5,312 nucleotides of DNA from a virus (Duplodnaviria > Heunggongvirae > Uroviricota > Caudoviricetes). Both the position numbers and the translations under genes were made by a program. The notes below the pieces were generated by a model, which was given only the letters and a program-made list of their open reading frames with translations, did no database searches and was not told the DNA's origin. Numbering within the stretch: the stretch's first letter is position 1; each line of letters begins with the position of its first letter. Location of the stretch: the IMG/VR virus record IMGVR_UViG_2778261418_000026; one strand, written 5' to 3'. This document shows, in pieces, positions 1,668-2,415 of the stretch.

Positions 1668-2120
1668 ATGAATATCAAAGAAAGATTAATACAGTACGAA
1701 GGAAGTAAAGAATATCAACGAGTACGCGGATACTACCGACAAGATAAATTTTACCCATATGTGGATACCGAAGGGTACGGCACAATCGGTTATGGACATA
1801 AAATCCTAGATAGTGAAATTGAGAAGTACAAAAACGGTATCAGTGCTATCGACGCAGATTTACTACTGGCTTGGGATATTGACCGTACTGTAAAGGATGT
1901 TAAAACATTAGGCTTGGACTTGCCGCAAGATTGGCAAGATTTCTTAGTCATCATGACCTTTCAGTTAGGTTTAGGTGGAGTTAAGAAGTTTAGGAAGATG
2001 TTAGCGGCACTAGACCGCAAAGACTGGAAAGAAGCAATTAGACAAGCAAAGGATAGCCTCTGGCATCGCCAGACACCTAACCGCCTTGATGATATGGTTA
2101 AACAATTAGTAAACAAGTAA
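1668..2120 (+). CDS. T4-type lysozyme (glycoside hydrolase family 24 endolysin, muramidase), 150 aa
   Basis: Translation aligns by eye with T4 lysozyme: MNI start, catalytic Glu11 (YEG), [12 protein letters not shown] block (Asp33 and Thr39 correspond to T4 Asp20 and Thr26), MTFQLGLGG, and [10 protein letters not shown] (T4: SRWYNQTPNR). SD AAGG 6 nt upstream of the ATG. No N-terminal signal or SAR helix. Followed by an intrinsic terminator. Confidence 0.93.
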
Positions 2121-2128
2121 GGAATAAT

Positions 2129-2159
2129 GAAGGGGCAAAATCGCCCCTTTATTTTTTTT
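2129..2159. terminator. Bidirectional rho-independent terminator between the convergent lysozyme (+) and 88-aa membrane protein (-) genes
   Basis: Stem AGGGGC (2131-2136) pairs with GCCCCT (2143-2148) around the loop AAAATC, followed by T8 (2152-2159) on the plus strand; an A/T-rich tract also flanks it on the other side. The minus-strand stop codon (2149-2151) lies at the base of the hairpin. Confidence 0.7.
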
Positions 2160-2415
2160 CTAATATTGCTATCACACGTTCAATCTTTAGATCCATTGAA
2201 TGAATCTGAGAACGTAAATCATTAAGTGCGAACTCTAGATCGTCCTGACCCTTTTCTAACCTTTCTACATCTGATTTAGTATGTACTAAGTCGGACTCGA
2301 TTTTAGCTAGTCGTGATTCAACTGATTTTAAGTCTGCTGATTTATCTCTAATGATATTCCAGACAAAAGCACCTAACGCTATTATGACGGCAATAATACT
2401 TTCCCATCCTGCCAT
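2149..2415 (-). CDS. Single-pass membrane protein with two-helix coiled-coil domain, 88 aa (holin-, antiholin- or i-spanin-like; unassigned)
   Basis: N-terminal hydrophobic helix SIIAVIIALGAFVWNII followed by R/K (positive-inside rule suggests N-out, C-in). The remainder is heptad-like and charged, in two helical segments split at KGQ. AGGG lies 8 nt upstream of the ATG. It sits next to the endolysin. No lipobox, so not an o- or u-spanin. Confidence 0.6.
   Translation of the reverse strand: MAGWESIIAVIIALGAFVWNIIRDKSADLKSVESRLAKIESDLVHTKSDVERLEKGQDDLEFALNDLRSQIHSMDLKIERVIAILEKK

What the first reader, a model, noticed from the sequence alone, without database searches (positions are those of the whole stretch)
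1668..2415. Orphan, inverted endolysin with no canonical holin or spanin partners; two small membrane proteins are the only candidates
The GH24 lysozyme has no signal or SAR sequence, so by established lysis biology it needs a holin to reach the periplasm. It is the only plus-strand gene, it converges on a shared bidirectional terminator, and it is not flanked by a recognisable holin-endolysin-spanin cassette. Adjacent are an 88-aa protein (one N-terminal TM helix plus a two-helix coiled coil, no lipobox) and, farther away, a 97-aa protein with two C-terminal hydrophobic helices. Either could be an unconventional holin, antiholin or spanin-like component. I found no embedded or adjacent lipoprotein (o-spanin) in the alternative frames of the 88-aa gene.
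Basis: partly seen in the sequence, partly recalled or inferred. Interest (0 to 1): 0.5.

Follow-up and report, generated by a model that had tools for sequence, protein, structure and literature searches.

The report
Prophage lysis module with back-to-front endolysin
The backwards-facing lysozyme gene is not an orphan: it belongs to a conserved six-gene cell-bursting module at the end of a rare enterobacterial prophage, alongside a distant relative of a known holin family and a small membrane-tethered helix protein built like phage Mu's "releasin", and no spanin is present.

Summary
Bases 1668-2120 (+) encode a soluble T4-lysozyme-type muramidase with no signal or SAR segment. It is the only plus-strand gene and converges with the 88-aa gene on a bidirectional hairpin terminator. 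No lipoprotein ORF exists in any frame.

The "orphan" reading does not hold. The window is the last 5 kb of a ~32.5-kb prophage integrated in yegD. Ten diverged lineages carry the same six genes in the same order: TM-helix protein, lysozyme, GIY-YIG protein, ~190 aa, ~105 aa, 97 aa. The lysozyme is inverted in seven lineages, always with the same hairpin and a palindromic divergent spacer. In the other three it is co-directional and abuts the TM-protein stop codon.

The 97-aa protein is a short, divergent relative of the PF11351 GTA-holin family, shown by reciprocal profile hits and a shared motif. The 88-aa protein is one continuous TM-plus-heptad helix with predicted N-out/C-in topology. That matches Mu gp25 (DUF2730) in architecture and argues against an i-spanin, but it scores below Pfam's cut-off.

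Best model: the 97-aa holin releases the cytoplasmic endolysin, the 88-aa protein is a cytoplasm-facing accessory, and there is no spanin. How the inverted gene is transcribed is unexplained. This is a new variant of a known kind, of moderate interest.

The parts
1..294 (-). 97-aa membrane protein, the last gene of the prophage. It is the holin candidate and a short divergent relative of PF11351 (GTA_holin_3TM).
   Evidence: Hydrophobic segments at 52-70 and 76-94. All 11 family members hit PF11351 (best E 9e-5, all below cut-off) and PHROG 3427 'holin' (best 1.1e-5) with no competing family. The family profile, run against 1.84 billion representatives, finds only 21 proteins. The distant ones are true PF11351 members at 29.7-66.5 bits, above the cut-off of 24.8. 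The motif QIE[VL]NKIE...WR[NP]xxG[WYM]V...Y...P is shared. It is the most conserved gene of the module (55-67% identity). pN/pS is 0.09 or less. The gene ends about 46 bp from the truncated yegD.
291..611 (-). 106-aa protein of unknown function, a conserved module member.
   Evidence: Present at the same position in all ten lineages. No TM segment. No Pfam, PHROG, PADLOC or NCBIfam family. No nonsynonymous differences among the E. coli copies.
612..1193 (-). 193-aa very basic protein (39 K/R against 17 D/E) of unknown function, a conserved module member.
   Evidence: Conserved in all lineages, with 27 invariant columns in 8 sequences. No consistent PHROG hit, no solved relative, only one weak phage tblastn hit. 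The single-sequence AlphaFold model is unusable (pLDDT 34).
1190..1627 (-). 145-aa GIY-YIG (SegE-like) nuclease-domain protein, a fixed member of the module and not a sporadic homing endonuclease.
   Evidence: PF19835 at 60.5 bits against a cut-off of 25. Present at the same position in all ten lineages. FVY...Y[IVF]G, E99 and N114 are invariant in the eight aligned. RefSeq start at 1627.
1628..1667 (.). 40-bp divergent spacer between the GIY-YIG and lysozyme start codons. It is an imperfect palindrome whose two arms give both genes the same ribosome-binding arm (TAAGGnTATTT-ATG).
   Evidence: Sequence. The equivalent 30-43-bp spacers in the other inverted lineages are palindromic, with hairpin z-scores of -4.8 to -7.4 in L006, L015 and L016 and co-varying arms. 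The window's own copy is weak (z -1.7). The same hairpin precedes the GIY-YIG gene in co-directional lineages L014 and L007. A sigma-70-like TTGATA-17-AATAAT on the minus strand at 1678-1650 could drive GIY-YIG through the 97-aa gene, but it is not conserved.
1668..2120 (+). 150-aa soluble T4-lysozyme-type (GH24) muramidase, the endolysin. It is encoded on the opposite strand to all its neighbours.
   Evidence: PF00959. Solved-structure matches to T4 lysozyme and T4 gp5. The N-terminal 'xxEG' Glu11 and [12 protein letters not shown] (Asp33, Thr39) are present, and the EG motif is kept in all orthologs. A 13-residue insertion between Glu and Asp is shared by orthologs. No hydrophobic N-terminus. 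It is the only glycoside hydrolase annotated in the prophage.
2126..2153 (.). Bidirectional intrinsic-terminator hairpin (AAGGGGC-loop-GCCCCTT, with an A-run on one side and a T-run on the other) shared by the converging lysozyme and 88-aa genes. It overlaps the 88-aa stop codon.
   Evidence: Scored on both strands. Folding energy -22.7 kcal/mol on the plus strand and -13.7 on the minus strand for the surrounding segment. The stem is conserved in all seven inverted lineages while loop and flanks vary. It is absent from the three co-directional lineages, where the genes abut.
2149..2415 (-). 88-aa bitopic membrane protein with a TM at about residues 5-22 running into one long heptad-repeat helix, predicted N-out/C-in. 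It is a lysis-accessory candidate with Mu gp25/DUF2730-like architecture.
   Evidence: TM. Single helix over residues 4-87, pLDDT 83.8. Charge distribution in 11 of 11 members. PF10805 at 17.9 bits against a cut-off of 24.9. Other lineages score 14.6-20.3 or nothing, while Mu gp25 scores 50.4 and Kp4866-3 scores 117. hhalign against five Mu-like DUF2730 proteins gives probability 92%, E 6.5e-7 over 69 columns, but controls show part of that is generic. In co-directional relatives its stop overlaps or abuts the lysozyme ATG.
5238..5312 (.). IS2 terminus that cuts the J-like tail-tip gene. This is context, not part of the lysis module.
   Evidence: 100% identity to IS2 copies in phage records. 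The tail-tip reading frame is cut at about residue 581 of 1100.

Best explanation
Bases 1-2415 are the terminal lysis module of a rare, site-specifically integrating (yegD, large serine recombinase), siphovirus-like prophage family of Enterobacteriaceae.

Shown here:
- The lysozyme is a soluble T4-type muramidase with its catalytic residues and no export signal.
- It is embedded in a six-gene block conserved in ten lineages.
- The 97-aa protein is a distant homolog of the PF11351 holin family.
- The 88-aa protein is a single TM-plus-long-helix protein whose helix is predicted to face the cytoplasm.
- No lipoprotein, and so no spanin, is encoded in the module or in the rest of an intact relative's prophage.

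Inferred:
- The muramidase accumulates folded in the cytoplasm.
- The 97-aa protein is the holin that opens the inner membrane and lets the muramidase reach the cell wall.
- The 88-aa protein acts from the cytoplasmic face of the membrane as a partner or regulator of that step. It is analogous in build and gene neighbourhood to DUF2730 proteins such as the Mu gp25 releasin, but cannot be releasing a SAR anchor because the endolysin has none.
- Outer-membrane disruption happens without a spanin.
- In the inverted lineages the hairpin ends both the late operon (after the 88-aa gene) and the lysozyme transcript. The endolysin, and GIY-YIG through the 97-aa gene, would then be separate transcription units starting at the palindromic spacer. 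Their promoters were not identified.
For: Prophage context and boundaries.

Conserved six-gene module in ten lineages.

Endolysin identity and lack of an export signal.

97-aa protein and PF11351:
- 11 of 11 members hit it as essentially the only family.
- The reverse profile search retrieves true PF11351 proteins.
- They share a signature motif.
- A bona fide PF11351 gene in L020 is likewise the last gene after the tail-fibre genes.
- The founding member of that family lies in the RcGTA endolysin-holin locus, which is required for lysis and release (PMC5026251 and PMC3423380).

88-aa protein:
- Stop-start overlap with the endolysin in three lineages.
- N-out/C-in charge pattern in 11 of 11 members.
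- One long helix.
- Profile-profile match to Mu-like DUF2730: score 39.4, against 14.8 for a reversed template and 10.7 +/- 2.5 for shuffled ones.
- DUF2730 proteins are documented next to both SAR and non-SAR endolysins (PMC9239132).

No spanin or second holin.

Genes intact and under purifying selection.

Terminator and palindrome conserved.
Against: - No member of either small-protein family reaches Pfam's gathering score. The 97-aa protein scores 14.8 bits against 24.8, and the 88-aa protein 17.9 against 24.9.
- The 97-aa family lacks the basic C-terminal tail of PF11351 proteins, and its last hydrophobic segment is short.
- Three genes of unrelated or unknown function separate the endolysin from the proposed holin.
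- Heptad-shift controls still give hhalign scores of 22-40, so much of the DUF2730 signal is generic 'TM plus coiled coil'. Many unrelated coiled-coil families score equally well. The co-directional clade gives no DUF2730 hit at all.
- No conserved sigma-70-like promoter for the inverted lysozyme was found.
- Nothing here tests function.
- This copy of the prophage is disrupted by IS2, so its lysis genes may never be used.
Confidence: 0.5

Rival explanations
1. The 88-aa protein is itself the holin, a single-TM holin in the manner of the LL-H or T4 T types. The 97-aa protein is then an antiholin, an accessory, or unrelated to lysis.
For: It sits immediately upstream of the endolysin, and its stop overlaps or abuts the endolysin ATG in three lineages, which is the classic holin-endolysin arrangement. 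There are weak full-length hits to Phage_holin_6_1 (Holin_LLH) in 3 of 7 members at E about 0.03. One co-directional member gives a weak TM-segment hit to P21 holin S (E 0.0023).
Against: These hits are no better than dozens of generic coiled-coil hits. The closest architectural analog, Mu gp25, is described as a releasin in a holin-less phage, not a hole-former (PMC9239132). The 97-aa protein has the specific, reciprocal link to a holin family.
Confidence: 0.22
2. The four genes from GIY-YIG to the 97-aa gene are not lysis genes. They are a moron, exclusion or defence cassette at the prophage end, made of a nuclease, two unknowns and a small membrane effector. Lysis would then rest on the 88-aa protein and the lysozyme only, or on host factors.
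For: Their position at the extreme prophage end next to the attachment site is typical for accessory cargo. The cassette contains a nuclease domain. Two of its proteins have no detectable family. In inverted lineages a terminator separates it from the late operon.
Against: No PADLOC defence model matches beyond a generic homing-endonuclease hit. The four genes are fixed in order and content across all ten lineages, whereas genes beyond the 97-aa gene vary. Cargo loci are usually variable. The 97-aa protein's only family link is to a holin family.
Confidence: 0.12
3. One reading: the 88-aa protein is an i-spanin-like component with a periplasmic coiled coil, working with an unrecognised outer-membrane partner.
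For: The overall shape, an N-terminal TM followed by a coiled coil, resembles Rz. There is one weak PHROG hit to 'Rz-like spanin' (E 0.008).
Against: The charge distribution predicts N-out/C-in in 11 of 11 members, which puts the helix in the cytoplasm. Rz-type i-spanins are N-in/C-out (established knowledge). No lipoprotein ORF exists in any frame of eight modules. The only lipoproteins in the prophage lie upstream of the terminase genes, lack a C-terminal TM, and one is weakly Cor-like. At 88 aa the protein is much shorter than Rz.
Confidence: 0.03
4. The lysozyme is not the endolysin. It could be a virion-associated or entry lysozyme, or a captured T4-like gene with another role, and the inversion reflects that different role.
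For: The best PHROG hit is to the C-terminal lysozyme domain of 'baseplate hub subunit and tail lysozyme' (E 6.7e-33). The closest phage relatives are jumbo-phage proteins often annotated that way. It is transcribed separately from the late operon.
Against: It is a free-standing 150-aa catalytic domain with no structural domain. It is the only muramidase annotated in the prophage. In three lineages it is co-directional with, and abuts, the small membrane-protein gene.
Confidence: 0.05

Closest known systems
Phage Mu gp25 'releasin' and the DUF2730 (PF10805) family (Chamblee et al. 2022, PMC9239132)
   Same: Similar size (88 aa against 99). An N-terminal TM with predicted N-out/C-in topology followed by a cytoplasmic helical domain. 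A shared LExR(L/I)xx(I/V)E stretch just after the TM. Encoded beside the endolysin. DUF2730 proteins are also known next to non-SAR endolysins, where their role is unknown.
   Different: It scores below Pfam's cut-off in every lineage, at 20.3 bits or less against 24.9, while Mu gp25 scores 50.4. It lacks the Pro-containing break seen in Mu-like members and is modelled as one unbroken helix. The gene lies upstream of, or convergent with, the endolysin, not within five genes downstream. The host element is a serine-recombinase, site-specific prophage, not a transposable phage. The endolysin has no SAR anchor to release.
RcGTA holin rcc00556 and the Pfam family PF11351 (GTA_holin_3TM)
   Same: A shared QIE[VL]NKIE...WR[NP]xxG[WYM]V...Y...P signature and the following hydrophobic segments. 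Hits run in both directions between the family profile and PF11351 members. It is paired with a soluble endolysin. The prophage's tail module is also RcGTA-like, with DUF2163, DUF6950 and Phage-tail_3 domains.
   Different: It is shorter, at 97 aa against about 120-160. It lacks the basic C-terminal tail and has a truncated last hydrophobic segment. It scores below the gathering threshold. It is separated from the endolysin by three genes, whereas rcc00555 and rcc00556 are adjacent. I did not test whether rcc00556 itself scores against PF11351; that link rests on Pfam's family description.
T4 lysozyme (gene e) with holin T: the canonical soluble GH24 endolysin
   Same: The catalytic Glu/Asp/Thr layout and fold family. 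It is cytoplasmic and therefore holin-dependent.
   Different: A 13-residue insertion between the catalytic Glu and Asp is shared by all orthologs. Identity to the nearest phage proteins is about 44%. The T4L N-terminal sequence used for the Glu11 comparison is recalled from memory.
Lambda-type S-R-Rz/Rz1 cassette
   Same: The same overall logic for the first two steps: a membrane protein plus a muralytic enzyme at the end of late gene expression.
   Different: There is no spanin pair. The endolysin is on the opposite strand. The holin candidate is four genes away. The module lies after the tail genes at the prophage end and not before the terminase genes, where this prophage carries secreted and lipoprotein morons instead.
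Spanin-less phages such as phiKT, which uses a cationic 'disruptin' (as cited in bioRxiv 10.1101/2024.01.23.576932)
   Same: No recognisable spanin in a phage of a Gram-negative host.
   Different: No small cationic amphipathic peptide was identified here. The only strongly basic protein is the 193-aa protein of unknown fold.

Membership tests
GH24 / T4-type lysozyme (PF00959) | Scores above Pfam's gathering threshold | tested here: met
   40.8 bits against 22.3. Solved-structure hits to T4L and T4 gp5 at E 1e-11 to 1e-14.
GH24 / T4-type lysozyme (PF00959) | Catalytic Glu, Asp and Thr (T4L E11, D20, T26) | tested here: met
   Asp33 and Thr39 lie in [12 protein letters not shown], aligned to T4L residues 17-30. 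Glu11 lies in [12 protein letters not shown], and the EG motif is kept in all orthologs. Its equivalence to T4L E11 rests on the T4L sequence recalled from memory.
SAR or secreted endolysin | N-terminal weakly hydrophobic signal-anchor or signal peptide | tested here: not met
   No TM segment. Maximum 15-residue hydropathy in the first 40 residues is -0.71, and at most 0.47 in all eight orthologs.
PF11351 GTA_holin_3TM (97-aa protein) | Scores above Pfam's gathering threshold | tested here: not met
   14.8 bits against 24.8. The best family member reaches E 9e-5, still below the cut-off.
PF11351 GTA_holin_3TM (97-aa protein) | Homology detectable in both directions, with a shared signature motif | tested here: met
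   11 of 11 members hit PF11351 as essentially the only family. The family profile retrieves proteins that score 29.7-66.5 bits on PF11351. The QIE[VL]NKIE...WR[NP]xxG motif is shared.
PF11351 GTA_holin_3TM (97-aa protein) | Full architecture: three hydrophobic helices and a basic C-terminal tail | tested here: not met
   The N-terminal helix is amphipathic. The last hydrophobic segment is short, and the protein ends at ...GG(I/M) with no basic tail.
Holin (functional class) | Forms lethal inner-membrane lesions at a programmed time and is required for endolysin release | not testable with these tools
   This needs expression and deletion experiments.
DUF2730 / releasin (88-aa protein) | Scores above Pfam's gathering threshold for PF10805 | tested here: not met
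   The window protein scores 17.9 bits. Other lineages score 14.6-20.3 or give no hit, against a cut-off of 24.9. Positive controls: Mu gp25 at 50.4 and Kp4866-3 at 117 bits. Precomputed tags from a newer model version exist for some close homologs, and 'weak' tags for others.
DUF2730 / releasin (88-aa protein) | Profile-profile similarity over the whole length, including the TM | tested here: inconclusive
   hhalign gives probability 92%, E 6.5e-7 over 69 columns. Reversed and shuffled controls score 14.8 and 10.7 +/- 2.5, but heptad-shifted coiled coils still score 22-40. Against Mu gp25 alone the probability is 11%.
DUF2730 / releasin (88-aa protein) | N-terminal TM with N-out/C-in topology | tested here: met
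   No K/R before the TM and 1-5 K/R in the next 15 residues, in 11 of 11 members. The pattern is the same in four Mu-like DUF2730 proteins. This is a prediction only.
DUF2730 / releasin (88-aa protein) | Genomic setting reported for cultured phages: a transposable Mu-like phage, with the gene within five genes downstream of the endolysin | tested here: not met
   The element has a serine recombinase, a fixed yegD site and a lambda-type terminase. The gene is upstream of, or convergent with, the endolysin. The criterion comes from PMC9239132.
Two-component spanin (Rz/Rz1 type) | An i-spanin with N-in/C-out topology and a periplasmic coiled coil | tested here: not met
   The predicted topology is the opposite.
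Two-component spanin (Rz/Rz1 type) | An o-spanin lipoprotein gene embedded in, overlapping or adjacent to the i-spanin gene | tested here: not met
   No lipobox ORF in any frame of eight modules. None elsewhere in the intact prophage, apart from moron-type lipoproteins upstream of the terminase genes.
Unimolecular spanin (T1 gp11 type) | A lipoprotein signal plus a C-terminal TM in one protein | tested here: not met
   The 126-aa and 152-aa prophage lipoproteins have no C-terminal TM.
Bidirectional intrinsic terminator | A GC-rich hairpin flanked by an A-run and a T-run so that it reads as a terminator on both strands | tested here: met
   Scored on both strands at 2126-2153 and 2149-2130. The stem is conserved in seven lineages. 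Termination itself was not tested.
GIY-YIG nuclease, SegE type (PF19835) | Above the gathering threshold, with the GIY...YIG motif and the Glu and Asn residues | tested here: met
   60.5 bits against 25. FVY...Y[IVF]G, E99 and N114 are invariant. The usual Arg position was not resolved.

The most novel reading that the evidence does not exclude
The convergent, back-to-front endolysin, its shared bidirectional terminator and the palindromic dual-RBS spacer together form a conserved transcription-level control of lysis. They would uncouple endolysin and holin expression from the late operon, for example through convergent transcription or hairpin-masked ribosome sites. Under the same reading, the 88-aa protein is a true DUF2730 relative working with a cytoplasmic endolysin and a PF11351-type holin in a non-transposable, spanin-less E. 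coli phage. That would give a tractable system for the open question raised in PMC9239132: what DUF2730 proteins do when there is no SAR endolysin to release.
Probability: 0.15. Interest if true: 0.65.

Novelty: new variant of a known kind. Interest (0 to 1): 0.4.

Why it matters
Lysis cassettes of phages of Gram-negative hosts are usually read as holin, endolysin and spanin in one co-directional block. This prophage family breaks that pattern in four ways:
- The endolysin lies on the opposite strand in most lineages, with conserved junction elements.
- The holin candidate lies four genes away.
- A Mu-releasin-like tethered helix protein sits beside a cytoplasmic endolysin, outside any transposable phage.
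- There is no spanin.

If confirmed experimentally, it would widen the known contexts of DUF2730-like proteins and of the PF11351 holin family. It would also add a case to the set of spanin-less coliphages. On the practical side, annotation pipelines call all of these genes 'hypothetical', so such prophages look as if they have no lysis system.

Tried and rejected
- **Known-phage matches:** megablast and blastn of the window against 50,697 phage genomes hit only the IS2 end and short tail-fibre stretches. tblastn of the 97-aa and 88-aa proteins found nothing. The 193-aa protein gave one weak hit.
- **Canonical cassette upstream of the terminase genes:** rejected. Those genes are signal-peptide proteins and lipoproteins with no C-terminal TM and no holin or spanin family; one is weakly Cor-like.
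- **Small unannotated TM ORFs in the early region of the relative,** including a 60-aa two-TM ORF next to the recombinase: no family hit, and not followed further.
- **Extending the 88-aa family:** a profile search of the 5.8-billion-protein index returned only the same small enterobacterial family and no Mu-like DUF2730 protein.
- **Comparison with Mu gp25 alone:** uninformative, at probability 11%.
- **The 193-aa and 106-aa proteins:** the single-sequence structure model of the 193-aa protein failed (pLDDT 34), so no fold search was run. PHROG scans of both and a solved-structure search for the 193-aa protein gave nothing consistent.
- **Defence-system reading:** no PADLOC support. NCBIfam gave nothing useful.
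- **Known RNA elements:** no Rfam family in the window.
- **Promoter for the inverted lysozyme:** no conserved sigma-70-like promoter was found.
- **A correction to my own notes:** I first assumed the inversion was the derived state. The tree of flanking genes suggests the opposite, so I reversed that.
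Full report
**1. What the window is**

The last 75 bases (5238-5312) are an IS2 terminus, 100% identical to IS2 copies in phage records. The remaining 5.2 kb matches no sequenced phage at the DNA level beyond short tail-fibre stretches. It is present at 97.9% and 94.8% identity in 2 of 5,426 complete E. 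coli genomes.

In both genomes it is the terminal part of a prophage that splits yegD. The 97-aa gene ends about 46 bp from the truncated yegD. In strain WGI31CT the whole element is about 32.5 kb. It carries a large serine recombinase at the far end, a lambda-type terminase, a tail tube and a tape measure with no sheath annotated, and an RcGTA-like tail-tip module (DUF2163, DUF6950, Phage-tail_3/Phage_Tail_Tip).

In our window IS2 cuts the J-like tail-tip gene at about residue 581 of 1100. This copy is therefore probably defective for virion production, although its lysis genes are intact.

**2. Checking the observation**

- **Lysozyme.** The ORF at 1668-2120 (+) encodes a 150-aa protein that scores 40.8 bits against PF00959 (cut-off 22.3). 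It aligns to T4 lysozyme and T4 gp5 in the PDB.
- **Catalytic residues.** The protein has [12 protein letters not shown] (Asp33, Thr39), aligned to T4L residues 17-30. It also has the N-terminal [12 protein letters not shown], whose EG is kept in every ortholog. I recall the T4L N-terminus MNIFEMLRIDEG from memory. A 13-residue insertion separates the Glu and the Asp in all orthologs.
- **No export signal.** No hydrophobic N-terminus occurs here or in seven orthologs.
- **Strand.** It is the only plus-strand gene.
- **Terminator.** The hairpin at 2126-2153 scores as a terminator on both strands.
- **88-aa protein.** It has one N-terminal TM. With a 9-sequence alignment AlphaFold2 models one continuous helix over residues 4-87 (pLDDT 83.8), not two helices.
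- **97-aa protein.** It has hydrophobic segments at 52-70 and 76-94.
- **No lipoprotein.** No lipobox ORF exists in any frame.

**3. The lysozyme is not an orphan**

Homologs of the 97-aa protein are very rare: 10 clusters in the 5.8-billion-protein index, and 21 proteins in an exhaustive profile search of 1.84 billion representatives. Looking up where they are encoded gave nine further lineages from Salmonella, Klebsiella aerogenes and metagenomes.

All of them have the same six genes in the same order after the tail-tip gene: a TM+helix protein (86-95 aa), the lysozyme (145-151 aa), a GIY-YIG protein (141-151 aa), a ~190-aa protein, a ~105-aa protein and a 97-101-aa protein. For the three lineages compared directly with the window, protein identities are 23-35%, 42-53%, 44-55%, 35-43%, 27-32% and 55-67% respectively. 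Among the E. coli copies all six genes are intact, with pN/pS of 0.16 or less.

**4. Orientation of the lysozyme**

The lysozyme is inverted in seven lineages: E. coli, L006, L015, L016, L017, L018 and L019. It is co-directional in three: L005, L007 and L014.

- **Co-directional lineages.** The lysozyme ATG overlaps or abuts the stop of the TM-protein gene (TAATG or TAA-ATG).
- **Inverted lineages, convergent end.** An (A)AAGGGGC-loop-GCCCCTT(TT) hairpin, flanked by an A-run and a T-run, lies between or overlaps the two converging stop codons. The stem is conserved while the loop and flanks vary.
- **Inverted lineages, divergent end.** The 30-43-bp spacer between the lysozyme and GIY-YIG starts is palindromic (AAATACCTCATA...TATGAGGTATTT and co-varying versions such as TTCC/GGAA). 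Each gene therefore has the same Shine-Dalgarno arm. Hairpin z-scores against shuffles are -4.8 to -7.4 in five of seven lineages tested, but only -1.7 in our window. The same hairpin precedes the GIY-YIG gene in co-directional L014 and L007.
- **Direction of change.** A midpoint-rooted NJ tree of the four flanking genes places the three co-directional lineages as one clade nested among the inverted ones. The convergent arrangement is therefore the majority state and probably the older one, with a single change. There is no outgroup or bootstrap, so confidence is low.

**5. The 97-aa protein**

All 11 family members hit PF11351 (GTA_holin_3TM; best E 9e-5) and PHROG 3427 'holin' (best 1.1e-5), with essentially no competing family. 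All are below Pfam's cut-off.

In the reverse direction, the distant hits of the family profile (E 2.7e-5 to 8.8e-4 library-wide) are genuine PF11351 proteins at 29.7-66.5 bits, above the cut-off of 24.8. They share QIE[VL]NKIE...WR[NP]xxG[WYM]V...Y...P with our family.

Our family is shorter and lacks the basic C-terminal tail. I therefore read it as a divergent, trimmed relative of that holin family. By Pfam's description the family is named for the RcGTA holin, whose locus rcc00555-rcc00556 is required for lysis and release (PMC5026251, PMC3423380). A true PF11351 gene in L020 is also the last gene after the tail-fibre genes.

**6. The 88-aa protein**

- **Topology.** All 11 members have no K/R in the 0-5 residues before the TM and 1-5 K/R in the 15 residues after it. 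By the positive-inside rule this predicts N-out/C-in, so the long helix is cytoplasmic. Four Mu-like DUF2730 proteins show the same pattern. That is the opposite of an Rz-type i-spanin, and there is no lipoprotein partner.
- **What is known about DUF2730.** It is the family of the Mu gp25 'releasin'. In cultured phages it was reported only in transposable phages, within five genes downstream of the endolysin. It occurs next to both SAR and non-SAR endolysins, and its role with the latter is unknown (PMC9239132).
- **Pfam test.** The score is sub-threshold in every lineage: 17.9 bits here, 14.6-20.3 or nothing elsewhere, against a cut-off of 24.9. Mu gp25 scores 50.4 and Kp4866-3 scores 117.
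- **Profile-profile test.** Against five Mu-like DUF2730 proteins, hhalign gives probability 92%, E 6.5e-7 over 69 columns including the TM and an LExR(L/I)xx(I/V)E stretch. A reversed template scores 14.8 and shuffled templates 10.7 +/- 2.5, against 39.4 for the real one. Heptad-shifted coiled coils still score 22-40.
- **Verdict.** The protein is built and placed like a DUF2730 protein, but family membership is not established.

**7. Is there a canonical cassette elsewhere?**

In the intact relative's prophage the only TM or secreted proteins are the following:
- the two small proteins discussed above;
- the tape measure and the tail-tip N-terminus;
- a group of signal-peptide proteins and lipoproteins upstream of the terminase genes, with no C-terminal TM;
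- a few unannotated short TM ORFs in the early region.

None of the secreted proteins, lipoproteins or short ORFs matches a holin or spanin family, and one lipoprotein is weakly Cor-like. No other muralytic enzyme is annotated.

**8. The three genes in between**

The GIY-YIG protein is a confident SegE-type nuclease domain (60.5 bits) with conserved motif residues. It is fixed in position in all ten lineages, which is not how a sporadic homing endonuclease behaves.

The ~190-aa basic protein and the ~105-aa protein have no family, no solved relative and no usable structure model. No defence-system model matches.

**9. Mechanism**

My best reading has confidence 0.5.
- The soluble muramidase accumulates in the cytoplasm.
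- The PF11351-like 97-aa protein is the holin.
- The 88-aa tethered helix acts at the cytoplasmic face as a partner or regulator of release.
- No spanin is used.
- In inverted lineages the hairpin ends both the late operon and the endolysin transcript.

The promoters for the endolysin and for the genes downstream of it are not identified. This is the main unexplained point.

The rivals, with confidence:
- The 88-aa protein is the holin (0.22).
- The four downstream genes are accessory cargo, not lysis genes (0.12).
- The lysozyme is not the endolysin (0.05).
- The 88-aa protein is a spanin (0.03).

**10. Verdict**

All recognisable components belong to known kinds, so this is not categorically new. 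What is unusual is the arrangement:
- a conserved convergent endolysin with a shared terminator and a dual-RBS palindrome;
- a holin candidate four genes away;
- a releasin-like protein outside transposable phages, next to a cytoplasmic endolysin;
- no spanin.

This is a new variant of a known kind, with interest 0.4. The experiments that would settle it are simple.

Noticed in passing
window 5238-5312 and 3677-5236 (-): An IS2 terminus ends the window. It cuts the J-like tail-tip gene at about residue 581 of 1100, so this copy of the prophage is probably defective. The 97.9%-identical copy in NZ_CM151386 has the same gene split into two CDS, and the copy in WGI31CT is intact.
   Followed up: partly
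window 1190-1627 (-); L005-L007 and L014-L019, same position: A 141-151-aa GIY-YIG (SegE-like) nuclease domain with no DNA-binding domain is fixed at one position in all ten lineages. That is unlike a mobile homing endonuclease. Its role next to the endolysin is unknown.
   Followed up: partly
window 1628-1667; equivalent spacers in L006, L014-L019, L007: A conserved, co-varying palindrome or hairpin covers the ribosome-binding site of the GIY-YIG gene and, in inverted lineages, also that of the lysozyme on the other strand. It recalls the hairpin-masked start sites of T4 gene e and T4 homing-endonuclease genes (from memory, not tested). It is weakest in this window (z -1.7).
   Followed up: partly
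window 3643-3668 (-): A strong terminator-like hairpin (10 pairs, 6 GC, followed by CTTTTATT) lies directly after the tail-tip gene. The 61-aa, 98-aa, DUF8377 and 88-aa genes may therefore form a separate unit or depend on read-through.
   Followed up: no
window 2483-3130 (-) and 3140-3436 (-): The 215-aa DUF8377 protein and the 98-aa protein share an N-terminal motif, M(S/A)xG(F/L)QC(Y/W)N(S/A)(A/S)G. Both match PHROGs of unknown function (4524 and 7961) and vary in presence among lineages. They are probably tail-fibre accessory genes.
   Followed up: no
L003 2873-3331, 3334-3729, 3909-4289 (-); L001 43720-45056 (-): A variable cluster of signal-peptide proteins and lipoproteins lies just upstream of the terminase genes, in the classical lysis-cassette position. 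One is weakly Cor-like (superinfection exclusion), and the set differs between the two E. coli prophage copies.
   Followed up: partly
NZ_CM135810.1 148214-148396 (-), within L003: An unannotated 60-aa ORF with two strong hydrophobic segments and a KK C-terminus lies between the serine recombinase and the first early gene. It has no family hit.
   Followed up: partly
protein P0032 residues 616-658: The N-terminal charged segment of the 97-aa family profile (positions 2-44) also matches an internal stretch of a 2,103-aa protein at E 1.3e-8. The PF11351-type N-terminal segment may therefore occur inside a very large protein, possibly a tail protein.
   Followed up: no
L006, L017, L018 (downstream of the 97-aa gene): In several other genera the prophage lies beside alkA and an HSP70-like (yegD) fragment. 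The yegD integration site therefore seems conserved across genera. One to several variable genes (for example an AbiGi-like gene in L016 and a KAP NTPase in L019) are inserted between the 97-aa gene and the host junction.
   Followed up: no
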